From IMG/VR virus record IMGVR_UViG_2565956600_000007: 12,520 nucleotides of DNA; one strand, 5' to 3'. Within the stretch, counting starts at the first letter, position 1. Every line of letters starts with the position of its first letter. A model generated the notes under the pieces. That model was not told the origin of the DNA. It was given only the letters and a program-made list of their open reading frames with translations, and did no database searches. The position numbers were made by a program, and so were the translations under genes. Origin of the DNA: a virus. Its lineage: Duplodnaviria; Heunggongvirae; Uroviricota; Caudoviricetes. Of the stretch, positions 1 to 12,520 are shown one piece after another.

Positions 1-9
1 TTAAACTGT

Positions 10-567
10 TCATGCGTTAGTTTCTCCACAACCAGAAGCAATCGACGCCACGACGCCCGGAGCTGCACACTCGCGGGCGTCATTACTTTCTGAAACGCAA
101 AAAATTTTGTAGACAAGTGCTGCATGCTCCTGCAGCTTCGAAATTGAGAGATACAGCTCGTCGTTAATTGCTGTCTTCTCATGCGGTTCCACTACACCGT
201 CTTCGATTGCCGAACGAATCTGTTTTGAATAACTGCCGATCTGTTCAATGACTTCCAGTAAACGCTGGTTAATATCGGCATTGTCCACATCCTCGACGTC
301 AGGAAGAGACACAAAGACGCCATTTGCAGACTGCGCCACAGCGTCAGCAATGAAGTGAGTTCCACCAGCACGTTGCAAAATCATTGCCCATCCCAGCGGG
401 AAAATCTGATCGCCATCGGCACGAAGGCGGTTAAATAATGCGTTCTCTGTTACATCCAGCCACTCAGCAGCTTCAGCGTAACCCCCCGGCAACGCCGCGA
501 TAGTTTTTCTGACAGCTTTCACGTACCACTCAGGCTGTTTTTCCACTTTCCAGTGATGATTACCCAC
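10..567 (-). CDS. Phage CII-like (possibly CP76-family) regulatory protein, 185 aa
   Basis: Complete ORF on the minus strand whose ATG (565-567) overlaps the 3' end of the upstream cro-like gene by 8 nt. Sits in the cro-cII position of a lambdoid immunity region. The family assignment is from memory of the N-terminal region and is not verified. Confidence 0.55.
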   Translation of the reverse strand: MGNHHWKVEKQPEWYVKAVRKTIAALPGGYAEAAEWLDVTENALFNRLRADGDQIFPLGWAMILQRAGGTHFIADAVAQSANGVFVSLPDVEDVDNADINQRLLEVIEQIGSYSKQIRSAIEDGVVEPHEKTAINDELYLSISKLQEHAALVYKIFCVSESNDARECAAPGVVASIASGCGETNA

Positions 568-820
568 GGCTTACCTCCTGTTCCTGTGGTTTAAACCCAT
601 TCTGGTTTTGGCTAGATTGAAAACGTGCCGGATAAAGAATCTGCATTTCGCTGATTTCACCCTTAAAAAAATTGGCCAGACGTTCTGCAAGATCGATAGA
701 TGGAATTTGTTCCAGTCTTTCAATACGACTCAGCGTCGCTGGATTGACCTGAACGCCAGCAGCAACATGCTGCAAAGTAAATCCGTGCGCCTTACGCACA
801 TTCCGTAATGGTGATTGCAT
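560..820 (-). CDS. cro: Cro-like HTH (XRE-family) transcriptional regulator, 86 aa
   Basis: Helix-turn-helix-like segment FTLQHVAAGVQVNPATLSRIERLEQIPSIDLAERLANFF. Transcribed divergently from the cI-like gene across an operator-bearing intergenic region. GGAGGT Shine-Dalgarno (revcomp of 824-829) sits 3 nt upstream of the ATG. Confidence 0.8.
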   Translation of the reverse strand: MQSPLRNVRKAHGFTLQHVAAGVQVNPATLSRIERLEQIPSIDLAERLANFFKGEISEMQILYPARFQSSQNQNGFKPQEQEVSRG

Positions 821-917
821 ATGACCTCCACATATTGCGTGATGAGCATATTATTTCACGCAAATATTTTGCGCAAGTTGATTTGCTTAACGCGCAATAA
901 AGAAATGTAATAAACGC
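821..917. promoter_or_regulatory. OR-like divergent operator/promoter region between cro and cI
   Basis: A perfect TTGC-N7-GCAA dyad at 883-897 (TTGCTTAACGCGCAA), plus degenerate copies at 835-849 (TTGCGTGATGAGCAT) and 869-883, and the inverted pair TTGCGTGA (835-842) / TCACGCAA (856-863). TGTAAT (-10-like, 906-911) lies 6 nt before the cI ATG with TTGCTT (-35-like, 883-888) at 17 bp spacing, which suggests a leaderless cI transcript. Confidence 0.55.
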
Positions 918-1610
918 ATGAACATAGGAAACCGAGTCAGACAACTTCGCCAGGCGAAGAACATGAAAATCGCCGATCTCGCTGAAGCAATAGGAGTGGA
1001 TGCGGCGAATATCTCACGCCTGGAAACAGGTAAGCAGAAACAATTCACTGAACAAGCCCTGAGTAATATTGCCAGGAGCTTAGGTGTTGATATTGCTGAT
1101 CTCTTTACCTCAGACTTCAAAAGTAATACTGTATGTAAAAACAGTATTAGTGAGGATGTTGCGCAGGTGAAGGATGTATTCCGTATTGAAATGCTGGATG
1201 TCAGTGCCAGTGCGGGAAATGGCCTTATCCAGGGCGGTGATGTCATTGATGTGATTCATGCCATTGAATACAGAACTGATAATGCTGTATCGATGTTTGG
1301 CGGACGGCCAGCCAATCACATTAAAGTTATCAACGTTCGTGGGGACAGTATGTGTCCAACCATTGAGCCAGGAGATCTCATCTTCGTTGATGTCAGTATC
1401 AATCAGTTTGATGGAGATGGTATCTATGTATTTGGTTTTGATGATAAAATTTATGTCAAACGACTGCAAATGATACCTGACAAACTACTGGTGATTTCTG
1501 ATAACCAGATTTACCGTGAATGGGGAATTACCAGCGAAAATGAACACCGGTTTATGGTCTTTGGAAAGGTCTTAATCAGCCAGTCACAAACCCTTAAGCG
1601 ACACAATTAA
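918..1610 (+). CDS. cI: CI-type prophage repressor, N-terminal HTH plus C-terminal S24 (LexA-like) autopeptidase, 230 aa
   Basis: N-terminal HTH (NRVRQLRQAKNMKIADLAEAIGVDAANISRLETGK). Ala-Gly linker (SASAGNG). C-terminal GDSM serine motif and VKRL lysine motif as in LexA/lambda CI. No Shine-Dalgarno upstream, consistent with a leaderless mRNA. Confidence 0.9.
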   Translation: MNIGNRVRQLRQAKNMKIADLAEAIGVDAANISRLETGKQKQFTEQALSNIARSLGVDIADLFTSDFKSNTVCKNSISEDVAQVKDVFRIEMLDVSASAGNGLIQGGDVIDVIHAIEYRTDNAVSMFGGRPANHIKVINVRGDSMCPTIEPGDLIFVDVSINQFDGDGIYVFGFDDKIYVKRLQMIPDKLLVISDNQIYREWGITSENEHRFMVFGKVLISQSQTLKRHN

Positions 1611-1630
1611 CCCTTACCTCCTCATCAATT

Positions 1631-1651
1631 AGCCACCCAAAGGTGGCTTTT
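1631..1651 (+). terminator. Possible intrinsic terminator after cI
   Basis: Stem AGCCACC (1631-1637) / GGTGGCT (1642-1648), loop CAAA, followed by TTT. The U-tract is short, so this is weak. Confidence 0.4.
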
Positions 1652-1665
1652 CATCACCCTTTAAA

Positions 1666-1704
1666 TTGCATATCTCGCAACAAAAACACTTGCATAATGC
1701 GCAA
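1666..1704. promoter_or_regulatory. OL-like operator pair (candidate pL region)
   Basis: Two perfect TTGC-N7-GCAA dyads, TTGCATATCTCGCAA (1666-1680) and TTGCATAATGCGCAA (1690-1704), 24 bp centre to centre, matching the dyad in the cro/cI intergenic region. CATAAT (-10-like) at 1693-1698. Confidence 0.5.
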
Positions 1705-2129
1705 CTTCATTTTATCTTTCTTTCCAGACAAACAAACAAGGTACTAACAAAATTTGGTTGTAACACGGCGTATGGCACATGCGTCGTTAGCGGTCTGGGG
1801 ACGTTAAAGGGGACAATCCACTCCTTGCTCGGGCAAACAAACCAGGTAGCCGGAATGTGCAAGTCAATGATGATGCTGATAAGACGCCTAACCAGCGTGG
1901 CGATTCGGTTTGACGCCTGGGAAGAGACCAGGGTGCAACGATGAGGGCATTTATGGAGCCGCGACAAAGTGTGGTGCCGTAACTGGCTAAGTGCTCTCAG
2001 CGTTGTGGTAATCCGCGAAATGGCGCGGCGGTAAGTATGGCGGGGTTACTCTTTCCCCGTTGAGGACACCGGATTGTCAGGTTGACCATACGCCTGAGTG
2101 ACAACCCCACCACAACAGCCACTGCTTTG

Positions 2130-2175
2130 GCGGTACCAGTTTGTACCCTTGCTTCCGGCTGGTACCGCTCTTTTT
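2130..2175 (+). terminator. Strong hairpin plus T5 tract in the early-left leader (tL-like terminator or boxA-like element)
   Basis: Perfect 10-bp stem GCGGTACCAG (2130-2139) / CTGGTACCGC (2159-2168), 19-nt loop, then TCTTTTT (2169-2175). The 3' flank CGCTCTTTTTACAA resembles boxA-like antitermination sequences. Confidence 0.45.
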
Positions 2176-2312
2176 ACAAAACAGAGAAGAGCATCACCGG
2201 ACGACGGGCTCATAACCCAATCCATCCGGGCGGCTGCCACCGCAGGTGTTCTTCTCCGTTTTGTGGAGAAACCAACCGACCTTGCAGGGTCGATATGATG
2301 AGGAGCAGCAAA

Positions 2313-2675
2313 ATGGCTAGCGAACGCAGTACTGATGTGCAGGCATTTATTGGGGAGCTGGACGGCGGCGTATTTGAAACCAAAATCGGCGCAGTTCTCA
2401 GTGAAGTCGCTTCCGGTGTGATGAACACGAAAACCAAAGGTAAGGTCTCGCTCAACCTGGAAATCGAACCGTTTGATGAGAATCGTGTGAAAATCAAACA
2501 CAAACTCTCGTATGTTCGCCCGACTAACCGCGGGAAAATTTCCGAAGAAGACACCACCGAAACGCCGATGTATGTCAATCGCGGTGGTCGCCTGACTATT
2601 CTGCAGGAAGACCAGGGACAATTACTGACTCTTGCTGGTGAACCTGACGGAAAACTCCGCGCAGCAGGTCATTAA
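2313..2675 (+). CDS. Phage early protein, YfdP-like, 120 aa
   Basis: AGGAG Shine-Dalgarno at 2301-2305, 7 nt before the ATG at 2313. The longer six-frame ORF from 2082 has no ribosome-binding site and runs through the terminator-like hairpin. Size and position match the first gene of the YfdP-YfdQ-YfdR block (from memory). Confidence 0.6.
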   Translation: MASERSTDVQAFIGELDGGVFETKIGAVLSEVASGVMNTKTKGKVSLNLEIEPFDENRVKIKHKLSYVRPTNRGKISEEDTTETPMYVNRGGRLTILQEDQGQLLTLAGEPDGKLRAAGH

Positions 2676-2740
2676 TATCGTTCTTAATTAACTGATTATT
2701 TATCTCATCACTGAATATCTTTATATAGTGAGGACTTATT

Positions 2741-3565
2741 ATGTCTCAGAACTTAGACGCAACCGCAATTAATCAAATCCATGCCCTTATTTCTGCTCAG
2801 GGTGTTAATGAAATTATCAGTAAGATTGGTGCCGATGCTGTGGCATTGCCTGAGAATTTCCGCATTCATGATCTGGAAAAATTTAATTTAAATCGCTTCC
2901 GTTTCCGTGGTGCGCTTTCCACTGCCAGCATCGATGACTTTACCCGTTATTCTAAAGATCTTGCAGATGAAGGCACCCGCTGCTTTATCGATGCTGATAA
3001 TATGCGTGCCGTCAGTGTGCTTAACCTGGGTACTATTGATGAACCAGGTCACGCAGATAACACCGCCACTCTCAAACTGAAAAAGACAGCACCGTTCTCT
3101 GCTCTGTTGTCTGTTAATGGCGAGCGTAACTCCCAGAAATCACTGGCAGAATGGATTGAAGACTGGGCCGACTACCTTGTGGGCTTTGATGCTAATGGTG
3201 ACACCATTCAGGCAACAAAAGCGGCTGCGGCGGTCCGTAAAATCACGATTGAAGCAAACCAGACCGCTGATTTTGAAGATAATGACTTCAGCGGCAAACG
3301 CTCCCTGATGGAGTCTGTCGAAGCGAAGACTAAAGACATTATGCCAGTGGCATTTGAATTTAAATGCGTTCCGTTTGAAGGCCTTAAAGAACGTCCGTTT
3401 AAATTACGCCTCAGCATTATCACTGGCGATCGTCCTGTACTGGTTCTGCGCATTATTCAGCTGGAAGCGGTGCAGGAAGAAATGGCTAACGAATTTCGTG
3501 ATCTGCTTGTTGAGAAATTTAAAGACAGCAAAGTAGAAACCTTTATTGGTACTTTTACCGCCTGA
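2741..3565 (+). CDS. yfdQ: Phage protein, YfdQ-like (DUF2303), 274 aa
   Basis: GTGAGGA Shine-Dalgarno at 2728-2734. Length and order (120 aa, 274 aa, then an HD-domain protein) match the CPS-53/KplE1 yfdP-yfdQ-yfdR arrangement as I recall it. Not verified by search. Confidence 0.65.
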
Positions 3566-3577
3566 TTTCATTACTGC

Positions 3578-3599
3578 AAATGCCCCTGCGGGGGCATTT
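3578..3599 (+). other. Stem-loop between the yfdQ-like and yfdR-like genes
   Basis: Stem AAATGCCCC (3578-3586) / GGGGCATTT (3591-3599), loop TGCG. No extended U-tract beyond the stem, so it may be an attenuator or an RNA-processing or stability element. Confidence 0.4.
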
Positions 3600-3692
3600 A
3601 TGGAAACGTAATTGACTCAATAATCGCCGGATGGTGAGGGCTTTCTTTTACCAGAATTCAGCGCGGTGCAGCGCATATACGTGGAGAACAAA

Positions 3693-4217
3693 ATGTCATT
3701 TATTAAAACTTTTTCCGGGAAGCATTTTTATTATGACAGGATAAATAAAGACGACATCGTTATTAACGATATCGCGGTTTCTCTTTCAAATATCTGTCGC
3801 TTTGCAGGACATCTTTCACATTTCTACAGCGTCGCCCAACATGCGGTGCTTTGCAGCCAACTGGTACCGCAGGAATTTGCTTTTGAAGCGTTAATGCATG
3901 ATGCAACAGAAGCGTATTGCCAGGACATTCCCGCACCACTGAAACGCCTTCTTCCTGACTATAAACGGATGGAAGAAAAAATAGACGCCGTAATCCGTGA
4001 GAAATACGGGTTACCCCCGGTTATGAGTACGCCCGTGAAATATGCCGATCTCATCATGCTGGCAACCGAACGCCGCGATCTCGGGCTTGATGATGGCTCT
4101 TTCTGGCCCGTACTGGAAGGTATCCCGGCAACAGAGATGTTCAAAGTTATTCCACTGTCGCCAGGCCATACCTATGGGATGTTTATGGAACGCTTTAAAG
4201 AGTTAACTGAGTCGTAA
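3693..4217 (+). CDS. yfdR: HD-domain phosphohydrolase (YfdR-like 5'-deoxynucleotidase family), 174 aa
   Basis: HD-superfamily motifs: His in SVAQHAVL and the H-D pair in EALMHDATEAY. GGAG Shine-Dalgarno at 3683-3686, 6 nt before the ATG at 3693, which is preferred over the upstream ATG at 3666. Confidence 0.7.
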   Translation: MSFIKTFSGKHFYYDRINKDDIVINDIAVSLSNICRFAGHLSHFYSVAQHAVLCSQLVPQEFAFEALMHDATEAYCQDIPAPLKRLLPDYKRMEEKIDAVIREKYGLPPVMSTPVKYADLIMLATERRDLGLDDGSFWPVLEGIPATEMFKVIPLSPGHTYGMFMERFKELTES

Positions 4218-4325
4218 AAATCAGCACGTACGAATTCAAACTCTGCCATAAAAGAACATATAAGTAATTTATTAACATATAGATATAGGTTATATTACAA
4301 ATTGAAAAATTATTGGAGAGCAACA

Positions 4326-5192
4326 ATGAATCAAAATCCATTCTCATTCTATGACTTTCTTGGATATTTAATACCAGGTGGTTTTTTTATCCTATTAATG
4401 TATTTCTGTGGTTTGACATTCGATCTAGATATTGTTATTGACTTAAGTGAATTGCTCAGAGGTCAAAGTCAAATCTTTGGCATTTTGAACTACGCTTCAA
4501 TAGTTATTATATCTTATATAGCTGGACATTTTATTTCTATCACGTCAGCATTTTTTATCGAAAAATACATGAATAAAGAATTAGGATATCCTTCCAAATA
4601 TCTATTTAAAAAATTGATAGATACCTCAGAAAGCATTTGTAGCCCATCATGCGATGAGAGAAGCGCTGATAAAAAAACAAAAATAAAGAATCGCATAATC
4701 AAATGCGTATTATGTCCAATAATACTATGGGATTTTATAACACAAAAACTATGTTATTCTCAATCTCTACCATTTCATTTAGCTAATACAACATGGTTAA
4801 TGATCAAAGAAGGTTATGAGAAAAAGTTCATAACAAATCGCCAATTATTACAAGATAAAAACGGACTTGATGATGATCTCTTCAGATTGGCATATCATTA
4901 TGTTTATGAGTTTTCAAAACAACATCAAACAAAAATTCAAAACTATGTTGCATTATATGGTTTTTGCAGAAACATATGTTTAATCTTTATAATTTCATTT
5001 TGGGTATCAGTTCCAACCTTTATTTATCGATTATGTACTCATAGTGATTATCTTTATAGTTTACTTTCAATAATGCTTAGCTTTTTCTTCGTCTATGTTT
5101 TCTATGTTGGTTTTGTTAAATTTTATAGAAGATATACTTTAGAAGTATTAATGGCATTTGCTGTACTTCAAAGTAACGACACTATTCGTTAA
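4326..5192 (+). CDS. AT-rich integral membrane protein of unknown function (about 4 TM helices), candidate moron, 288 aa
   Basis: GGAGAG Shine-Dalgarno at 4315-4320 before the ATG at 4326. Hydrophobic segments: FLGYLIPGGFFILLMYFCGLTF, IFGILNYASIVIISYIAGHFISITSAFFI, YVALYGFCRNICLIFIISFWVSV, LYSLLSIMLSFFFVYVFYVGFV. Composition is much more AT-rich than the flanking phage genes, with Lys/Asn/Ile/Tyr-rich codon usage. Confidence 0.7.
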   Translation: MNQNPFSFYDFLGYLIPGGFFILLMYFCGLTFDLDIVIDLSELLRGQSQIFGILNYASIVIISYIAGHFISITSAFFIEKYMNKELGYPSKYLFKKLIDTSESICSPSCDERSADKKTKIKNRIIKCVLCPIILWDFITQKLCYSQSLPFHLANTTWLMIKEGYEKKFITNRQLLQDKNGLDDDLFRLAYHYVYEFSKQHQTKIQNYVALYGFCRNICLIFIISFWVSVPTFIYRLCTHSDYLYSLLSIMLSFFFVYVFYVGFVKFYRRYTLEVLMAFAVLQSNDTIR

Positions 5193-5233
5193 TAATGTTG
5201 CTCCCGTGTGCAGACGGGATAATGGAGAAACGT

Positions 5234-5440
5234 ATGCTGAACCTCGATTGTGTTCCTATCTCAACTTATTGCAAAGAAACTGGCGAAACTCCTGAAGCAA
5301 TAAACAAACGTGTACAGCGCGGTGTTTGGCGTGAAGGTGTTCAGGTTTTAAAGGTTGAAGGCGTTAAGGAGAGGTGGATTGATCTTAGTGAGGTTGCAAA
5401 ATGGGCCAGACAAAACTGCTCAAACTACCGCGCGGCGTAA
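5234..5440 (+). CDS. xis: Excisionase (Xis-like), about 68 aa
   Basis: Small basic protein immediately upstream of int, overlapping it by 40 nt as in lambda xis/int. GGAG at 5224-5227 precedes the ATG at 5234. Alternative in-frame starts at 5222 and 5195. Confidence 0.6.
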   Translation: MLNLDCVPISTYCKETGETPEAINKRVQRGVWREGVQVLKVEGVKERWIDLSEVAKWARQNCSNYRAA

Positions 5441-6573
5441 CAATCAGGAAACACCGCCAGGGAGAAACGATCAATATAACTTTCACCTACAAAGGAGTTA
5501 GATGTCGTGAGCCGCTTTCCAATCTGGAAGTAACATCAAAGAACATTAAATACGCCGAGCGTACACTCGGCGAAATCCATAATAAGATCGAAAGGGGAAC
5601 ATTCATTTATGCAGAATATTTTCCCCGTTCTGCTCGTTTGAAAATTTTTGGTAATGCTGCTGCAGGCAAAACGGTAAAGATGTACCTGGACGAATATCTT
5701 GAAATCTGCGAAACAAGAAAACTTTCACCCTCTACGATTGGTGGCTATAAAAAATGCCGTAGTGCGTTAGCCTCACTTCACATTTGCCCTGCAAGTGAAT
5801 TAACACCAGCAACCCTGAAAGCGTGGATTCAAAGCCAGAAAACAACCTTAAAAACCATTCGCAACCAGTTATCTTTCCTACGGTCAGCACTTGATGAAGC
5901 CGTGACCGATGGGGTACTTCAAATTAACCCCGTATCGTTAGTAACAGCTTCGCGCTACCAAAGTGATAAGTCAGAAGCAGAAAGCAGCTATGTGGTTGAT
6001 CCGCTATCACCAGCAGAAGTTGATGCATTACTAGCAGCAGCCGGAAACAAACAATGGGAAAATCTGTTCCGGTTCGCCATACATACAGGCCTGCGTAGTT
6101 CTGAATTATGTGCCCTACGATGGCATGATATCGACTTTGTTGGAAAAACAGCCCATGTTCAGAGCGCAAGTGTTGTCGGAGTTATCAAAGGAACAAAGAC
6201 AAAAGCCGGTACCCGTAAAGTTGAACTGACTGAAGAAGCAATGTTGGCGTTGATAAACCAGAAGCCATTTACATTCATGAAGGATGCTACTGTCTTTGAA
6301 GATCCAAAGACCAATAAACCCTGGGCAAGTGCTGATGCAATTAGGAAAAAAGCATGGGTGCCAACATTGCGAAAAGCAGGTATTCGTTACAGAAACCCAT
6401 ATCAAACCAGGCATACATTCGCCACCAGCCATATCAGCCGGGGAGCAAACCTGTTTTGGCTTGCGGCTCAAATGGGCCATAAAGGGCCTGAAATGTTATT
6501 CAGGCACTATGGACAATACTTGAAAGAGTATGATGGGAGGGCAAGTATCAAGGATAAAAAGGCTTTATTTTAA
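5401..6573 (+). CDS. int: Tyrosine recombinase, lambda-type phage integrase, 390 aa
   Basis: N-terminal arm-binding-like region (LPRGVTIRKHRQGETINITFTYKGVRCREPL). Catalytic signature residues: R in TGLRSSELCALRW, H-x-x-R in TRHTFATSH, and a C-terminal H...Y in GHKGPEMLFRHYGQY. Confidence 0.9.
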   Translation: MGQTKLLKLPRGVTIRKHRQGETINITFTYKGVRCREPLSNLEVTSKNIKYAERTLGEIHNKIERGTFIYAEYFPRSARLKIFGNAAAGKTVKMYLDEYLEICETRKLSPSTIGGYKKCRSALASLHICPASELTPATLKAWIQSQKTTLKTIRNQLSFLRSALDEAVTDGVLQINPVSLVTASRYQSDKSEAESSYVVDPLSPAEVDALLAAAGNKQWENLFRFAIHTGLRSSELCALRWHDIDFVGKTAHVQSASVVGVIKGTKTKAGTRKVELTEEAMLALINQKPFTFMKDATVFEDPKTNKPWASADAIRKKAWVPTLRKAGIRYRNPYQTRHTFATSHISRGANLFWLAAQMGHKGPEMLFRHYGQYLKEYDGRASIKDKKALF

Positions 6574-7182
6574 GTCATTATGCCAATCGTCTACTGTTTG
6601 AAACCAAATTTTTAACCTTTGCATAAAGGTACGATCCTTTTTGGGAGGGTGGTACCTTTGAAAAGAAGTATGTAACGCTTCGATAACTCCCATACAAGCA
6701 TCAATTACTTCTTGTGCTTTAACCGGGCGATCGGCATCTGAAAGCTTGTGAGCGACCTCACAATCCAGAGTTGCTTTCTCTAGTACAGATGAGAACACCT
6801 CGTCAGGTATATACAGTCCTCTGCTTTCCAAAATGCAAATCAGTTTGGAAACTTGTTGAGCTTTAGCCAAGATAGTTAACAAGTATGAAACAGAAGCCTT
6901 TGTTCTATCCTTTTGCAACCTTAACAATCGATGCTTTGATGCTCTAATTTTAGGTTGAGTTGTCTGACTGAGCCAATAGTTAGAAGAAATATCAGAAATT
7001 TCAATAACTAACTTTGAAATAGCATCAATAATTGATTTCGATTCAGAACGTGTCGCCAGTTTTACAGAATTATTGTACGCAACTCGCCATCCAATGAAAA
7101 CTAAGCAGACGCTAACTACTGTGATACACCACGAATACTGTCCTATTTGTGCTACTAATGACATTGGTTCCGTACTGATCAA
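6565..7182 (-). CDS. Membrane-anchored protein of unknown function (N-terminal TM helix plus helical domain), third gene of the cargo operon, 205 aa
   Basis: TTG start at 7182 preceded by AAGAGG at 6 nt spacing; alternative ATG at 7164. N-terminal hydrophobic segment YSWCITVVSVCLVFIGWRVAY. The 3' end overlaps the int stop convergently by 9 bp. Confidence 0.55.
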   Translation of the reverse strand: MISTEPMSLVAQIGQYSWCITVVSVCLVFIGWRVAYNNSVKLATRSESKSIIDAISKLVIEISDISSNYWLSQTTQPKIRASKHRLLRLQKDRTKASVSYLLTILAKAQQVSKLICILESRGLYIPDEVFSSVLEKATLDCEVAHKLSDADRPVKAQEVIDACMGVIEALHTSFQRYHPPKKDRTFMQRLKIWFQTVDDWHNDLK

Positions 7183-7192
7183 CTATCGCCTC

Positions 7193-7519
7193 TTATACTC
7201 TTTCTGGTTGTGCTAAATCAATAAATTTATCAATCTGTTCTTTGTAGAACGGAACATCACTTTTTATAATCAAACGTGCTTTAACGTTGGCTTTAGGTAT
7301 CCCTTCCTTACGGATGAGACCTCCAAACGCCTCTTCTAAGAAAGAGGAACCAACACCCAGTGCTATACCGCGAAAATCAACCACAATCTCCTGTTCAGTA
7401 CCCTTCAGCGCAGGCACCAAAAACTCTCTACGAAATCTTTCCGCACTGTGTGGGCTATCCGTTGTGTAACGTCCGAAAGGTGTTCTGGAGAACTCCTTCG
7501 CTATGACGATATTTCTCAT
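7193..7519 (-). CDS. STAS-like (DUF4325-like, anti-sigma-factor-antagonist-like) protein, 108 aa
   Basis: Small protein with a VVDFRGIALGVGSSFLEEAFGGL segment resembling the SpoIIAA/RsbV region that carries the phosphorylatable Ser. AGGAG Shine-Dalgarno 8 nt upstream of the ATG. Starts 4 nt after the ATPase gene stop. Confidence 0.6.
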   Translation of the reverse strand: MRNIVIAKEFSRTPFGRYTTDSPHSAERFRREFLVPALKGTEQEIVVDFRGIALGVGSSFLEEAFGGLIRKEGIPKANVKARLIIKSDVPFYKEQIDKFIDLAQPERV

Positions 7520-7523
7520 AAAA

Positions 7524-8435
7524 TCATCTCCTGGGAACCAGCGACCATTGTAGTAAAGTACCCGGTATGTACTCAGCTAGCTTCTCACATCGAGGACTAC
7601 TGTCATTAGAATTATAGCTATAACGAGCCCTTCCTGTTAGTATCAGAAGTGTCTCATTATCCTCACAACCTGCCCCAATAGGTCTCTTGATATCTTCAGA
7701 GCCATTTCCCCGTCCGGAACCAACAAAGCGGGATTCCCCTACTAACATAGCTCTTTCCACAGAAGATACTTCGTTTTGAATGCTATGACCATCACCATTA
7801 GGCACGAAACTTCTATAAATCCCCAATCCAAGGTCACAAACGATAAAAACGACTTTATTTTCATCACGATTGAACCAAGCGCACTGCCACCATCGTTTAC
7901 CTTTGAGAAGCTGAATATCTGACTCGAACCCCTCATCTTCATACGCATGATGAGAAACATTGAGCAAAGCTTCACTAATCGCTGTCAGCAGTAAGCCTAA
8001 CTGTTCATTATTAAGCAGAGCACTTTTCTGCAGCATGAGTACTGTTTCAACAATATGCTCGTAAGGTTCGACAGCTGACTGAAAGTATCGTTCCTCCCTC
8101 GTAAGTGCATTCAGTTTCTCTTCTGTGCCAGCAAGCAAAGCACGAGCAAGTCCAGTACCAACGATCCATCTATGCCCAGATGGGTTATCATCCTTTTTAG
8201 GCCATTTAAAACGTATAAAATTAGGGTCCCGGGTTAAAAATTGAGCTCTATTTACTATGGCAAAGAACAGTACCGATGCCGCAGCTGAGGCAAATTTTAC
8301 CTTGGACAAATCAACTATAACTCGACCTTTATTTTTTACTCCAATCGATTCAATCGAGTTGATGAAGTTCAATGTCCCAGCCCTAGAATCATCTGAGTAA
8401 ATGCAAAATTTGCTTGGGGGTACCAGTATGGTCAT
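7524..8435 (-). CDS. GHKL-type ATPase (HATPase_c-like, RsbW/SpoIIAB-like putative Ser kinase) with a roughly 140-aa N-terminal domain of unknown function, 303 aa
   Basis: Bergerat-fold motifs in the correct order and spacing: N-box EALLNVSHHA, G1 box VCDLGLGI, G2 box GSGRGNG. First gene of a tightly packed three-gene minus-strand operon with an AT-rich upstream region (8436-8583). Confidence 0.65.
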   Translation of the reverse strand: MTILVPPSKFCIYSDDSRAGTLNFINSIESIGVKNKGRVIVDLSKVKFASAAASVLFFAIVNRAQFLTRDPNFIRFKWPKKDDNPSGHRWIVGTGLARALLAGTEEKLNALTREERYFQSAVEPYEHIVETVLMLQKSALLNNEQLGLLLTAISEALLNVSHHAYEDEGFESDIQLLKGKRWWQCAWFNRDENKVVFIVCDLGLGIYRSFVPNGDGHSIQNEVSSVERAMLVGESRFVGSGRGNGSEDIKRPIGAGCEDNETLLILTGRARYSYNSNDSSPRCEKLAEYIPGTLLQWSLVPRR

Positions 8436-8583
8436 AGCGATGTCATTCTTATACGATGGATTTATAGATTATCTACTATTCATAGTTGGTTATGAAGACT
8501 GGGATATAACAGTAAAAGATACGTGTAAGATCCGCAAGATAGTTAATGTCGAAAAAAATCATTAATTACATCAAGTTAGTGAT

Positions 8584-8619
8584 ATTTGGACTCGGGTTCA
8601 ACTCCCGCCAGCTCCACCA
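8584..8619 (+). other. ssrA: tmRNA (ssrA) 3'-terminal segment (T-arm, acceptor 3' strand, CCA): att core or displaced ssrA end
   Basis: ATTTGGACTCGGGTTCAACTCCCGCCAGCTCCACCA closely matches the 3' end of enterobacterial tmRNA as I recall it (GGACGCGGGTTCAACTCCCGCCAGCTCCACCA). Sequence upstream of 8584 is unrelated to tmRNA, so this is only a fragment. Confidence 0.7.
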
Positions 8620-8824: not shown

Positions 8825-10066
8825 ATGGCAAGACAAACCAAACCTCTATCCGTTAAAGAAATAGAATCAGCCAAACCCAAGGAGGCGGACTACGTTCTCT
8901 ATGATGGCGATGGCCTTGAGCTACTCATTAAATCCAGCGGGAGTAAAATCTGGCAGTTTCGCTACATTCGCCCTGTCACCAAGAAACGAGCAAAGAAGAG
9001 CATAGGCTCCTACCCGTCAGTTACCCTTGCCGATGCCAGAAACTACCGTGCAGAGTCCCGCTCACTACTGGCTAAACAGATCGATCCGCAGGAACATCAG
9101 CAAGAACAATTGCGCAGTTCGCTGGAAGCCAAAACCAACACTTTCCAACTCGTAGCTGAACGTTGGTGGAATGTGAAGAAAGCCAGTGTGACAGAGGACT
9201 ATGCGGAAGATATCTGGCGCTCTCTTGAAAGAGACGTCTTTCCTGCGATTGGCGACGTTAGCGTTACAGATATTAAAGCTCATACACTGGTTCAGGCCGT
9301 ACAACCGGTTCAGGCCAGAGGAGCACTGGAAACTGTTCGTCGCCTGTGCCAACGTATTAATGAGGTCATGATCTATGCCCAGAACACAGGGCTGATTGAT
9401 GCTGTTCCCAGCGTTAATATCGGTAAAGCCTTCGAGAAGCCTCAGAAAAAGAACATGCCCAGCATTCGACCGGATCAGCTACCTCAGTTAATGCAGACGA
9501 TGCGAACAGCCAGCATTAGCCTTTCCACACGCTGCCTGTTCATGTGGCAACTTCTTACTATTACCCGCCCTGCCGAAGCGGCTGAAGCTCTCTGGGAAGA
9601 GGTAGACATAGAAGCGCGAGAGTGGAAGATTCCTGCAGCACGCATGAAAATGAACCGCGACCATACTGTTCCATTGTCAGATGAAGCAATTGCGATACTA
9701 GAGATGATGAAGCCGTTAAGTGGAAATCGAGAATTTATCTTTCCCAGCCGCATCAAGCCAAACCAGCCGATGAACAGTCAGACCGTAAACGCATCGCTAA
9801 AACGCGCAGGTTTTGGTGGGGTGCTCGTTTCACACGGCCTGCGATCTATCGCCAGTACAGCCCTTAATGAGCAGGGATTTCCACCTGATGTTATTGAGGC
9901 TGCACTTGCTCATGTGGATAAGAATGAGGTTCGTCGTGCGTATAACCGTAGTGATTATCTTGAGCAGCGACGGCCTATGATGCAGTGGTGGGCTGATTTT
10001 GTGATGGCTGCAGATCACGGTAGTATGATTGAAGGAGGGATAAAGGCAATGCGGTTAGTTGGATGA
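8825..10066 (+). CDS. intA: P4/CP4-57-type tyrosine integrase, 413 aa
   Basis: N-terminal arm-binding-like region (KPKEADYVLYDGDGLELLIKSSGSKIWQFRY). Catalytic R in TITRPAEA, H-x-x-R in HGLRSIAST, C-terminal Y in RRAYNRSDY. Lies about 200 bp downstream of the ssrA 3' segment in the same orientation, as for intA next to ssrA in E. coli K-12 (from memory). Confidence 0.9.
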   Translation: MARQTKPLSVKEIESAKPKEADYVLYDGDGLELLIKSSGSKIWQFRYIRPVTKKRAKKSIGSYPSVTLADARNYRAESRSLLAKQIDPQEHQQEQLRSSLEAKTNTFQLVAERWWNVKKASVTEDYAEDIWRSLERDVFPAIGDVSVTDIKAHTLVQAVQPVQARGALETVRRLCQRINEVMIYAQNTGLIDAVPSVNIGKAFEKPQKKNMPSIRPDQLPQLMQTMRTASISLSTRCLFMWQLLTITRPAEAAEALWEEVDIEAREWKIPAARMKMNRDHTVPLSDEAIAILEMMKPLSGNREFIFPSRIKPNQPMNSQTVNASLKRAGFGGVLVSHGLRSIASTALNEQGFPPDVIEAALAHVDKNEVRRAYNRSDYLEQRRPMMQWWADFVMAADHGSMIEGGIKAMRLVG

Positions 10067-10146: not shown

Positions 10147-10172
10147 AAACCCTGCTCTTAAGCAGGGTTTTT
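10147..10172. terminator. Bidirectional intrinsic terminator between the convergent integrase and cargo operon
   Basis: Stem AAACCCTGCT (10147-10156) / AGCAGGGTTT (10161-10170), loop CTTA, flanked by T and A runs. Confidence 0.6.
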
Positions 10173-10204: not shown

Positions 10205-11299
10205 CTATTTTAAATCAGCCTTTGCGGCTCGAATATCTGCGTTTTTTGCTGAGTATTCCCATTCGTCAGCGATTCTAAATAGCATTGCAGAAGTACGGAC
10301 GCAGTGGGGCATTGAATTTGCCCATTCTCGGTACTGCTCAGCTAATATCCTTTCTTGGTTTCCACCTTCGTAACGCATACGAGCAAATACCCCCCTTTTA
10401 TTGTACCTACCAATTTGTATACCTTGCTCTAACTCATCAGAAGATAATATTTCAATGATGTGCCGAATTGCTTCATGTGGCCAGGAATTATCTACTGAGC
10501 TATTAGGGGCATGTGCCAGAATTTTTCCTATTACATGATCAGTGATTTCTTGGCGATGATGCAATTTTGCTAAATGGCGTACATTCTCACACCAATCTTC
10601 AAGTTTATCTTGATCAATTTCATTGTCTATCTGCCCTGGTAGTATTCGTAATTTTTCAAGTAATCTGTATATAGAAGTAGCTCTTTTAACTTCCAACTCC
10701 GATGGTTCTGTTTGTTCATCTTCGTCACTACGATATACAATACATATTGCTTCTATAAAAACCTCTGGCTTTTTCATCATTAGACGATGCAGGATAAGTG
10801 GCTCATCGCTATCCGGAAAACAAGGCAAGTAGGTCATTTCTTTAAATGCCAAATCTGTTTCAGAAACATCGTTACGTTGTTTGAGTTCATCAAAAACTTT
10901 TTTTACATAGTACGATAGCATTGTATCAAATTGGATATCCTGGCTATTTATTTCTTTAACGACTATATCTAGAAGATATAAAAGTGTTGTAGATGGAATC
11001 TCAGAAAGGCGTTGATTTGCTGATATAATAGCAGCAAGACCCCGGCCCCTTTCTATATATTTATCCATAAGAACAAATAAATCCGAAGTTTTACCCATCA
11101 TTGCAATGGGTTGTTTTTGCAACCAATATTTTTCGTTGATGTTATCTTCAAACCCTTCAATAATGCTCCATATCTCTTGTGAGTCTCTTAACGATGCTAA
11201 GATTTTCCCAGCCCTATCAGGGGTAATTTTAAACTGTTTAAAATACACTTTTATTTTATTAAGCCATTCAGCACCAAAGCATTCAACACCATATTGCAT
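10205..11299 (-). CDS. Hypothetical protein (AT-rich, predicted largely helical), distal gene of a translationally coupled pair, about 364 aa
   Basis: ATG at 11297-11299 overlaps the upstream stop as TAATG. The six-frame TTG start at 11305 is less likely. No Walker A, nuclease or other motif recognisable by eye. Confidence 0.65.
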   Translation of the reverse strand: MQYGVECFGAEWLNKIKVYFKQFKITPDRAGKILASLRDSQEIWSIIEGFEDNINEKYWLQKQPIAMMGKTSDLFVLMDKYIERGRGLAAIISANQRLSEIPSTTLLYLLDIVVKEINSQDIQFDTMLSYYVKKVFDELKQRNDVSETDLAFKEMTYLPCFPDSDEPLILHRLMMKKPEVFIEAICIVYRSDEDEQTEPSELEVKRATSIYRLLEKLRILPGQIDNEIDQDKLEDWCENVRHLAKLHHRQEITDHVIGKILAHAPNSSVDNSWPHEAIRHIIEILSSDELEQGIQIGRYNKRGVFARMRYEGGNQERILAEQYREWANSMPHCVRTSAMLFRIADEWEYSAKNADIRAAKADLK

Positions 11300-12520
11300 T
11301 AACAACCCACAAACTTCATCAATATTTTTTTGTTGTTAATAAGCATTACAAACAAATCATTTAATTTTTCTTCATCCAACGAGAGTGCTGATATATGCCT
11401 TGCTGCAATAAAAACATTATTAACTTGTTGAAAAAGGTCTTTCACCCCAGACAAACCTAAAGTAAAGTATATTTCCCTAAGTTTTTCACTTCGCATTTCT
11501 TCGACAGAAGAAAAAATTCCGCCAGCATTTTCAATTGACTCTTCAATATCAGAATCCCAATCATTGAAAATCCATAAACTGGCTCTAACCATGTCAATTG
11601 GTTTATAATTATCAAGTATTTTCGCTATTTTTTCCATAGACTCAAATTTAAATGCCCAGTTCGCATCTGAATATTTTTTATGGCGAGAATACTCATGACG
11701 CAAAGCCTCCCATACGATGAACTGATCCTCTTCAGTTTGTTGAGAAAGGCAAAGTTCAAGATGAGAAAGTGTTTCATCTATTGCATTCTCAGGGAATGAG
11801 CTTAAATGAGAGATTAGGATTTCCCATCTTGTTGGGAGTATACCTGCAAGTTTAATTGCTTCTTGGATAATAAAGATTTGCCCCTCCCAAACAACGCCCC
11901 ACGTTAGTTTTTCTACATCTTTATCCGACTCTCTGAACTTCATTTTTTGGTTTTGATCAGAGGTATCATGGGAGCGAGGAAGGAGATTTTGTAACAAACT
12001 CCACCCAATACTAGGAACAATAGTGATAATTTTTTTTATAATTGCATTTCTAACTTTTACTGGTGCCCATGTATTAGGAGACCATGCCAGAAAAATGGTT
12101 CTTAAACTATTAAGAGGGCGATCTGAGTAAGTTCCTCCGGGATCTATTACAGCGAGTTTTGCAAGACAGATTGCAGCGCGTAATAGATATGTTTGTTCCC
12201 AAGCCAAGGCTTCCAATGCCCATTTTAATCCATGATAATGACTTCGAGGAGTTAACAGCCCTTTATCTTCATTGAATATTGGAGCAATCATTTCCCCATT
12301 GCCCTTAAGCAATTGCTCAAGGGCATCAAGGAAAGGGCCAGGGGCAGCTTCTGCCAGCAGCGGAAGTTGATCTCGCAAACTAACAAATAGTCGATGGTCG
12401 TTAGCAAGTCCCGGAATACTCTGAACTATTTTGTTAACAAAATCTTGGGGTGTCATACCAGTAACCCGGAATTCGGCCTGTTCATGTAATATGATCTTAC
12501 CCAGCAATAGTGGACACGCG
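11299..12520 (-). CDS. Hypothetical protein, 5'-partial (the reading frame is open to the window edge; more than 402 aa)
   Basis: The frame is open through 12508-12519 on the minus strand, so the true start is outside the window. AT-rich, with no recognisable catalytic motif. Confidence 0.65.
   Translation of the reverse strand, partial: ACPLLLGKIILHEQAEFRVTGMTPQDFVNKIVQSIPGLANDHRLFVSLRDQLPLLAEAAPGPFLDALEQLLKGNGEMIAPIFNEDKGLLTPRSHYHGLKWALEALAWEQTYLLRAAICLAKLAVIDPGGTYSDRPLNSLRTIFLAWSPNTWAPVKVRNAIIKKIITIVPSIGWSLLQNLLPRSHDTSDQNQKMKFRESDKDVEKLTWGVVWEGQIFIIQEAIKLAGILPTRWEILISHLSSFPENAIDETLSHLELCLSQQTEEDQFIVWEALRHEYSRHKKYSDANWAFKFESMEKIAKILDNYKPIDMVRASLWIFNDWDSDIEESIENAGGIFSSVEEMRSEKLREIYFTLGLSGVKDLFQQVNNVFIAARHISALSLDEEKLNDLFVMLINNKKILMKFVGC

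What the first reader, a model, noticed from the sequence alone, without database searches (positions are those of the whole stretch)
10205..12520. AT-rich, translationally coupled gene pair of unknown function beside a P4-type integrase (candidate novel cargo or defence locus)
Two large ORFs on the minus strand, convergent with the integrase, are joined by a TAATG stop/start overlap at 11297-11301, and the upstream one continues beyond the window. Their base composition is visibly more AT-rich than the integrase, suggesting separate acquisition. I see no ATPase, nuclease or other hallmark motif in either protein, so the function is not predictable from sequence. In P4-like satellites the region next to the integrase is a reported hotspot for anti-phage systems.
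Basis: partly seen in the sequence, partly recalled or inferred. Interest (0 to 1): 0.7.

Follow-up and report, generated by a model that had tools for sequence, protein, structure and literature searches.

The report
Broken Avs-like phage-defence gene, not a pair
The two "coupled genes" are the rear 60% of one large, phage-defence-type gene that this E. coli strain has broken with a one-base deletion and an IS3 insertion, so the locus is a decaying copy of a known kind of immune gene and not a new two-gene system.

Summary
The ORFs, the TAATG at 11297-11301 and the low GC (0.375 against 0.495 for the integrase) are real. The reading as a coupled gene pair is wrong.

More than 120 homologues are single proteins of about 1,250 aa that span both ORFs. 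The junction lies 24 nt downstream of an A7 tract (11325-11331). This tract is A8 and in frame in 144 of 187 E. coli carriers.

The upstream ORF does not continue past the window. Bases 12492-12520 are the left inverted repeat of an IS3 inserted after codon 487.

The intact gene (1,248 aa, WP_000871158.1, for example in O104:H4) lies between the ssrA integrase and PD-lambda-4/Avs8.

Structure prediction and fold searches show three modules:
- an N-terminal PD-(D/E)xK nuclease;
- an AAA+/STAND-like module that lacks the Walker A motif in all 213 members checked;
- an alpha-solenoid sensor.

The best PDB matches are Avs5, SAMD9 and Avs3. A profile comparison with Avs8A gives 87% probability (E 3.9e-6).

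Verdict: this is a pseudogenised, Avs8-related antiviral STAND-like gene. The defence guess is right in spirit. The claims of a pair, of coupling and of novelty are not supported.

The parts
10205..11324 (-). Codons 876-1248 plus stop of the ancestral 1,248-codon gene (C-terminal part of the alpha-solenoid), now in the shifted frame. Annotated in RefSeq as a separate 364-aa 'hypothetical protein' (WP_001317263.1) starting at M885 (ATG 11299-11297).
   Evidence: AF2 model of the 95%-identical Klebsiella fragment P0121: pLDDT 85, all-alpha.
11325..11331 (-). A7 homopolymer (T7 on the + strand), the frameshift site. The in-frame allele has A8 (…AAC AAC AAA AAA AAT ATT GAT… = NNKKNID).
   Evidence: An 81-nt probe found 43 genomes with the window allele and 144 with one extra base.
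11297..11301 (-). TAATG. TAA is the premature stop created by the frameshift. ATG is codon M885 of the original frame. It is not a coupling signal.
11332..12491 (-). Codons 488-874 of the ancestral gene, holding the first part of the sensor solenoid. This includes the block most similar to Avs8A (aa 528-791).
12030..12037 (-). Second homopolymer, A8, at codon 638-640. It is intact here. The Intestinirhabdus alba orthologue changes frame at about aa 640.
12489..12491 (.). ATA, one copy of the 3-bp target-site duplication made by the IS3 insertion.
   Evidence: ATA lies on both sides of the 1,258-bp IS3 in L001.
12492..12520 (+). Left inverted repeat of IS3 (TGATCTTACCCAGCAATAGTGGACACGCG). The element interrupts the gene after codon 487.
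   Evidence: RefSeq annotates an IS3 transposase immediately beyond this point.
10147..10170 (.). A 10-bp-stem hairpin between the convergent integrase and the gene. It scores as terminator-like on both strands.
8825..10066 (+). IntA/P4-type tyrosine integrase of the ssrA island (context, not part of the gene).
   Evidence: Arm-DNA-bind_3, Phage_int_M, Phage_integrase. ssrA lies next to it in L008 and L009.

Best explanation
Window 10205-12491 is the 3' 61% (codons 488-1248) of a single 1,248-codon gene.

Shown: the gene is inactivated here by two lesions. One is an IS3 insertion after codon 487, whose end fills 12492-12520. The other is a 1-bp deletion in an A8 tract at codons 873-876, which creates the apparent TAATG 'overlap'.

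Shown by structure prediction and fold search: the intact protein (WP_000871158.1, for example in E. coli O104:H4) is an Avs-type, Avs8-related antiviral STAND-like receptor. It has an N-terminal PD-(D/E)xK nuclease domain, an AAA+/STAND-like module with a winged helix but without Walker A/B motifs, and a long alpha-solenoid.

Inferred by analogy with Avs8A and other Avs proteins: the solenoid binds a conserved phage protein, the protein oligomerises, and the nuclease is switched on so that the infected cell aborts the infection. The conserved acidic 'ADSPDEV' loop in place of GxxxxGK[ST] suggests this happens without ATP hydrolysis.

Inferred: in this strain the gene is dead. At most a C-terminal sensor fragment with no effector could be made.
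For: One gene:
- More than 120 homologues of 1,247-1,259 aa cover 100% of the reconstructed protein and read through the junction.
- E. coli member P0002 reads …LINNKKNIDEVCG….
- The reconstructed gene is 3,746 nt, one base short of 1,249 codons.
- 144 of 187 carriers have the extra base and a single annotated ORF.
- Intact 3,747-nt genes occur in L008 and L014.

IS3:
- The exact inverted repeat lies at the window end. In L001 the elements are 1,258 bp with perfect ATA and CAT duplications, and excising them restores the ORF.
- The insertion site is empty in 75 of 185 genomes.

Architecture:
- The AF2 model of family member P0270 (834 aa) has pLDDT 92.7 and pTM 0.85.
- In Foldseek against the PDB, the only hits at E<=1e-4 are EfAvs5, human SAMD9 and Avs3.
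- The C-terminal model is all-alpha, and the frameshift point lies inside helix 209-223.

Relation to Avs8A:
- hhalign gives 87% probability, E 3.9e-6, for aa 528-791 against 556-817, plus a colinear N-terminal hit at E 0.0015.
- A Shewanella family member hits the PADLOC PD-Lambda-4_A model at E 9.5e-5.

Context:
- In E. coli the gene is adjacent to PD-lambda-4 A+B.
- Elsewhere it lies next to AbiE, RES-Xre, SIR2, OLD-type and HEPN_AbiV genes.

Avs8A function comes from bioRxiv 10.1101/2025.07.02.662641 and PMC13581612.
Against: - No member of the family has been tested here, and defence activity is inferred.
- The E. coli protein itself hits no PADLOC, Pfam or NCBIfam model.
- Similarity to Avs8A is confined to part of the sensor at useful confidence. 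The NTPase-like region alone gives hhalign E 0.86.
- Walker A is absent in 0 of 213 full-length members, so a defining STAND feature is missing.
- The canonical (D/E/Q)xK lysine is a conserved glycine (E74-F-G76), so nuclease activity is not assured.
- Foldseek TM-scores to Avs proteins are low (0.19-0.26) because domain orientations differ.
- Some relatives carry an HTH domain and are annotated as regulators or antitoxins.
Confidence: 0.8

Rival explanations
1. [quoted passage not shown]
For: The overlap exists. RefSeq annotates two hypothetical proteins in the 43 genomes with this allele.
Against: - All homologues across Proteobacteria, Bacteroidota and Actinomycetota are single ORFs.
- 144 of 187 E. 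coli carriers have one ORF.
- The junction falls inside a confidently predicted helix.
- The upstream ORF is itself cut by IS3.
Confidence: 0.02
2. The A-tract is a contingency (phase-variation) switch, or a site of programmed ribosomal or transcriptional slippage. On this view the A7 allele is a reversible OFF state of a costly defence gene and not simple decay.
For: - A7 and A8 both occur in IS3-free backgrounds (TW10590, KSC64, RX24 against O104:H4) and in IS3-bearing backgrounds. This implies recurrent change at the tract.
- A second A8 tract at codon 638 coincides with the frameshift in the Intestinirhabdus alba orthologue.
- A more distant homologue (L004) is also split.
Against: - Eight adenines is a short tract with a modest slippage rate.
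- Recombination between alleles could also give the four combinations.
- In the window the IS3 insertion kills the gene whatever the tract length.
- The draft I. alba and metagenome frameshifts could be sequencing errors.
- No switching rate was measured.
Confidence: 0.12
3. The family is not an immune receptor. It is a large regulator or 'addiction module' protein, as some database names suggest (XRE family regulator, HigA antitoxin).
For: Distant members carry an N-terminal HTH_3 domain. Fragments of the E. coli protein are named 'XRE family transcriptional regulator' or 'addiction module'.
Against: - The E. coli clade and most of the family lack the HTH.
- The names are propagated from the HTH-bearing relatives.
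- The nuclease + NBD + WHD + solenoid architecture and the top PDB matches are those of Avs/SAMD9.
- Neighbourhoods are defence islands and mobile elements.
- HTH domains are also found on defence proteins.
Confidence: 0.06

Closest known systems
Avs8A / PD-lambda-4A (EcAvs8, WP_000963924.1): Mrr-type nuclease + STAND P-loop NTPase + tandem-repeat sensor. It binds HK97-fold major capsid proteins and degrades dsDNA (bioRxiv 10.1101/2025.07.02.662641; PMC13581612).
   Same: - Similar length (1,248 against 1,282 aa) and the same order of modules.
- N-terminal PD-(D/E)xK fold.
- Sensor block aa 528-791 aligns to 556-817 at 87% probability, E 3.9e-6, and the greedy alignment is colinear end to end.
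- The two genes are divergent neighbours in the E. coli ssrA island.
   Different: - About 19% identity.
- No PADLOC PD-Lambda-4_A hit for the E. coli protein.
- Walker A GxxxxGK[ST] is present in 116 of 116 Avs8A proteins and absent in 0 of 213 here.
- No acidic Walker B residue after the third strand ('MIFLPRD').
- The nuclease motif is ExG rather than QxK.
- There is no Avs8B-like partner, and distant homologues stand alone.
'KpAvs8' of Lee et al., Nature 2026 (PMC13581612): an Avs8-type protein from Klebsiella pneumoniae with natural absence of nucleotide-binding residues.
   Same: It is described as having degenerate Walker A/B motifs and an Avs8-type capsid sensor. K. pneumoniae and another Klebsiella-like source carry 94-95% identical copies of the protein studied here (P0121, P0122).
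   Different: Identity could not be checked. No accession or sequence for KpAvs8 is in the text or in the supplements held. The Klebsiella hits seen here are 579-aa fragments.
Other antiviral STAND proteins and SAMD9 (Avs3 8dgc, Avs4 8dgf, EfAvs5 9jap, SAMD9 9zjv)
   Different: No sequence similarity, low global TM-scores (0.19-0.26), and those proteins bind nucleotide.
Homopolymer-controlled (phase-variable) defence genes, such as phase-variable restriction-modification systems (general knowledge)
   Same: Frameshifts at A8 tracts inside the coding sequence, polymorphic among isolates.
   Different: The tracts are short, no switching was measured, and in the window the gene is also irreversibly broken by IS3.

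Membership tests
Translationally coupled two-gene operon | Two ORFs that are separate genes in related genomes | tested here: not met
   All full-length homologues are single ORFs of about 1,250 aa. 144 of 187 E. coli carriers have one ORF across the junction.
Antiviral STAND (Avs) proteins | N-terminal effector domain (for example a nuclease) | tested here: met
Antiviral STAND (Avs) proteins | Central STAND NTPase fold (NBD, helical domain, winged helix) | tested here: met
Antiviral STAND (Avs) proteins | Walker A (GxxxxGK[S/T]) and Walker B nucleotide-binding motifs | tested here: not met
   No full-length member (0 of 94 and 0 of 119) has the motif at aa ~200-300, against 116 of 116 Avs8A proteins. 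The family has conserved 'A-D-S-P-D-E-V' (aa 221-227) after the first strand.
Antiviral STAND (Avs) proteins | C-terminal repeat sensor | tested here: met
Antiviral STAND (Avs) proteins | Protection against phage, triggered by a phage protein | not testable with these tools
   This needs plaque assays and co-expression toxicity tests with the intact allele.
Avs8 / PD-lambda-4 | Match to the family's sequence model | tested here: not met
   The E. coli protein has no PADLOC hit even at E<=1. Only 2 of 21 diverse family members reach E<0.01.
Avs8 / PD-lambda-4 | Homologous sensor domain | tested here: inconclusive
   hhalign gives 87% probability, E 3.9e-6, over 245 columns, and 74% with smaller profiles. 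The rest of the sensor is not significantly similar.
Avs8 / PD-lambda-4 | Two-gene operon with Avs8B | tested here: not met
   The gene is divergent from the Avs8AB operon in E. coli. It has no conserved neighbour in 11 other contexts.
P4-like satellite defence hotspot | The island carries P4 satellite genes beside the P4-type integrase | tested here: not met
   No P4 genes are annotated in the ~22 kb beyond the integrase in RM10466 or in the ~10 kb in O104:H4. What is annotated is this gene, Avs8AB, hypothetical genes, IS3 copies and CP4-57-type remnants (ypjA, ypjC), up to tRNA-Ile.

The most novel reading that the evidence does not exclude
The intact gene represents a very large family (about 3,000 clusters at 50% identity) that Pfam, NCBIfam and PADLOC 2023 do not annotate. 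Its members are STAND-derived immune receptors that have replaced the P-loop with a conserved acidic loop, so they would sense phage and fire a variant PD-(D/E)xK nuclease without nucleotide binding. In Enterobacteriaceae their expression may also be toggled by slippage at two internal A8 tracts.
Probability: 0.25. Interest if true: 0.6.

Novelty: new member of a known kind. Interest (0 to 1): 0.3.

Why it matters
For annotation, RefSeq lists two (in some strains four) 'hypothetical proteins', and other sources name fragments 'XRE regulator' or 'addiction module'. In fact there is one disrupted gene. Merging them removes a false candidate operon from defence-island screens.

For biology, the intact allele is present in about 1% of complete E. 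coli genomes, including the O104:H4 outbreak lineage. It is an easily testable Avs-like receptor that lacks nucleotide-binding motifs across the whole family. If it is active, it would show how a STAND receptor can signal without ATP. Its repeated inactivation (two IS3 insertions and homopolymer frameshifts) next to a working Avs8 illustrates the turnover and cost of immune genes.

Tried and rejected
- Pfam, NCBIfam and PADLOC scans of both window ORFs and of the intact protein gave nothing.
- A profile search of PDB sequences gave nothing.
I worked around this with hits from window-based searches.
With the window fragment it returned only two close loci.
- The homologue search with the downstream ORF returned only fragments.
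- The afdb50 fold library was unavailable.
- hhalign restricted to the NTPase-like region against the Avs8A NTPase domain showed no similarity (E 0.86). The P-loop correspondence therefore rests on the predicted fold and on my reading of the motif order, not on sequence alignment.
- The KpAvs8 accession or sequence could not be found in the paper or the supplements held.
- A literature search for the WP accessions found no paper.
- I considered and rejected a sequencing error at the A-tract, because 43 independent complete genomes share A7.
- I considered and rejected a P4 satellite context.

Full report
**1. What is in the window**

The window is E. coli chromosome. Two minus-strand ORFs lie convergent with a 413-aa tyrosine integrase at 8825-10066 (Arm-DNA-bind_3, Phage_int_M and Phage_integrase domains). 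The TAA at 11301-11299 and the ATG at 11299-11297 overlap as TAATG. GC is 0.369 and 0.380 for the two ORFs against 0.495 for the integrase. A 10-bp-stem hairpin at 10147-10170 between the convergent genes scores as a terminator on both strands. Neither ORF matches Pfam, PADLOC or NCBIfam.

**2. The upstream ORF is cut by IS3**

- The last 29 bases of the window (12492-12520) are exactly the left inverted repeat of IS3.
- In strain RM10466 (L001), which is identical to the window from about 8593 onward apart from one SNP, a 1,258-bp IS3 sits there, flanked by a perfect ATA duplication.
- A second, inverted IS3 with a CAT duplication lies 1.3 kb further on.
- Removing both elements and one copy of each duplication restores an 883-codon frame starting MKWIKALNLQQW…, which runs into the window's upstream ORF.

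**3. The 'pair' is one gene with a frameshift**

- Just upstream of the junction is an A7 tract (11325-11331), and the downstream frame is open back to 11335.
- Joining the frames at the tract gives a 1,248-aa protein. More than 120 database proteins of 1,247-1,259 aa cover 100% of it at 45-83% identity.
- In the alignment they read through the junction: window …LINNKK|ILMKFVGC* and QQK|NIDEVCGLLMQYG… against P0001 …LINSDKNIDAAGGVLINDG….
- An E. coli database member reads …LINNKKNIDEVCG….
- The reconstructed gene is 3,746 nt, one base short of 1,249 codons.
- The TAATG is therefore the stop reached 8 codons after a 1-bp deletion, next to the first Met (M885) of the old frame.

**4. Population survey (5,426 complete E. 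coli genomes)**

| Feature | Result |
|---|---|
| Junction probe (81 nt) | found in 187 genomes |
| Window allele, A7 (two ORFs annotated) | 43 genomes |
| One extra base (A8) | 144 genomes (those listed annotate one ORF) |
| IS3 site after codon 487 empty | 75 of 185 |
| IS3 site after codon 64 empty | 58 of 153 |

- Fully intact 3,747-nt genes exist, for example in O104:H4 (WP_000871158.1; L008 6419-10165) and in MEI7BO1-21. The latter also shares the window's left-hand context.
- A7 and A8 each occur both with and without the IS3, so the tract has changed more than once or the alleles have recombined.
- A second A8 tract (window 12030-12037, codon 638) coincides with the frameshift in the Intestinirhabdus alba orthologue.
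- The 90% identity cluster of the protein holds many fragment lengths.
- The gene is thus repeatedly inactivated in Enterobacteriaceae.

**5. What the intact protein is**

Sequence libraries give nothing. The family is nevertheless large. A full phmmer scan with the window fragment found 3,069 representatives at 50% identity clustering (E<=1e-3), mostly about 1,250 aa.

An AlphaFold2 model of family member P0270 is confident (pLDDT 92.7, pTM 0.85). P0270 is 834 aa, covers the N-terminal two-thirds, and was modelled with a 60-sequence alignment. The model shows:
- an alpha-beta-beta-beta-alpha-beta domain at aa 1-145;
- a beta-alpha nucleotide-binding-like domain at 175-310;
- a helical bundle;
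- a winged-helix-like unit at 359-421;
- an alpha-solenoid.

The C-terminal 579 aa were modelled from the 95%-identical Klebsiella fragment P0121 (pLDDT 85). They are all-alpha, with only generic HEAT/TPR matches. The frameshift point lies inside helix 209-223.

**6. Relation to Avs8**

In E. coli the gene's divergent neighbour is PD-lambda-4 A+B (PADLOC E=0). This system has been renamed Avs8. Its Mrr nuclease-STAND-repeat protein binds HK97 major capsid proteins and degrades DNA (bioRxiv 10.1101/2025.07.02.662641; PMC13581612).

- Pairwise BLASTP gives weak but colinear matches.
- Profile-profile comparison improves as the profiles become more diverse: 12%, then 74%, then 87% probability, with E 3.9e-6 for aa 528-791 against 556-817. 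There is also a colinear N-terminal hit at E 0.0015.
- A Shewanella member hits the PD-Lambda-4_A model at E 9.5e-5.
- The NTPase-like region alone is not similar by sequence (E 0.86).
- None of 213 full-length members has GxxxxGK[ST] there, against 116 of 116 Avs8A proteins.
- By my reading of the model and motif order, the first strand and helix are 'KISLAADSPDEVIAFAIAAIR', with conserved D222, D225 and E226 where the P-loop would be. The third strand, 'MIFLPRD', lacks a Walker B acid.
- In the nuclease domain D54 and E74 are invariant, but the usual lysine is G76. K84 is conserved nearby.

**7. Context elsewhere**

The gene stands alone, with no conserved partner, on plasmids, islands and transposon-rich DNA. 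Its neighbours are often defence or toxin-antitoxin genes:
- AbiEi/AbiEii;
- an Abi protein, SIR2, two RES-Xre pairs and AbiEii;
- HTH-ImmA/IrrE, a PDDEXK nuclease and DUF4238;
- an OLD-type ATPase-TOPRIM;
- an SMC-like ATPase and HEPN_AbiV.

A sub-clade has an extra N-terminal HTH_3 domain. This explains names such as 'XRE family regulator', 'HigA antitoxin' and 'addiction module' attached to fragments.

**8. Mechanism**

Shown:
- one gene, broken here by IS3 and a frameshift;
- the Avs-like tripartite fold;
- no Walker motifs;
- defence-island neighbourhoods.

Inferred:
- the solenoid recognises a phage protein, perhaps a capsid protein as for Avs8;
- this drives oligomerisation and activation of the nuclease, ending in abortive infection;
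- the step does not use ATP hydrolysis.

The Nature 2026 paper tested a 'KpAvs8' with naturally degenerate Walker motifs. Klebsiella carries 94-95% identical copies of this protein. I could not obtain the KpAvs8 sequence, so identity is plausible but unproven.

**9. Verdict**

It is not a gene pair, not translationally coupled, not in a P4 satellite, and non-functional in this strain. It is a new (or possibly already described) member of the Avs kind, and interest is modest. The residual interest lies in the family-wide loss of nucleotide-binding motifs and in the recurrent homopolymer frameshifts.

Noticed in passing
window 6565-8435 (minus strand): A three-gene cluster lies between a prophage integrase (5401-6573) and the IntA-type integrase. 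It encodes a 205-aa hypothetical protein, a 108-aa STAS-like DUF4325 protein (E 6e-14) and a 303-aa protein with a weak HATPase_c_2 match (E 9e-5). This resembles an anti-sigma kinase/antagonist pair and has no PADLOC hit. It may be prophage cargo worth its own look.
   Followed up: partly
window 4302-5192 (+): A 296-aa ORF sits in a sharp GC trough (0.27-0.30) just upstream of the prophage integrase. It has weak matches to the CRISPR VI-B accessory membrane protein Csx27 (PADLOC E 1.4e-5, NCBIfam E 0.02, far below cut-off). It is probably a membrane 'moron' gene.
   Followed up: partly
window 1-8592: The left part is the end of a lambdoid prophage (ymfL, XRE repressor, yfdP/Q/R, integrase). 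No tmRNA gene is in the window, whereas in O104:H4 ssrA lies directly beside the IntA-type integrase. In RM10466 a P2-like prophage occupies the same position. Different prophages therefore stack between ssrA and this island.
   Followed up: partly
window 12030-12037; L003 about 8088-8097: There is a second A8 tract in the gene (codon 638-640). The Intestinirhabdus alba orthologue changes frame at about aa 640, at this tract. This may be a real mutation or a draft-assembly error.
   Followed up: partly
L001 22493-26277: Two IS3 copies in inverted orientation, each with its own target duplication, bracket the 432-codon middle piece of the gene. The arrangement looks like a composite transposon.
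   Followed up: no
L004 6637-10744: A distant metagenomic homologue is also split, into 1,134-aa and 247-aa ORFs that overlap by 41 nt, next to AbiEi/AbiEii. This is another independent frameshift or an assembly error.
   Followed up: no
L005 6713-10777; L006 152-4264; L011 5764-9726; L012 5728-9765: Plasmid-borne relatives in Rhizobium, Shewanella, Arthrobacter and Thalassospira carry an additional N-terminal XRE-type HTH of about 70-120 aa. It is fused to the nuclease domain and is the source of misleading 'regulator/antitoxin' names.
   Followed up: partly
P0001 and P0138 (both with a 28,110-bp longest contig, source ENA): An 83%-identical intact orthologue of this gene and a 94%-identical Avs8A are each reported with a longest contig of the same length. 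This suggests that the two genes travel together in another enterobacterial lineage.
   Followed up: no
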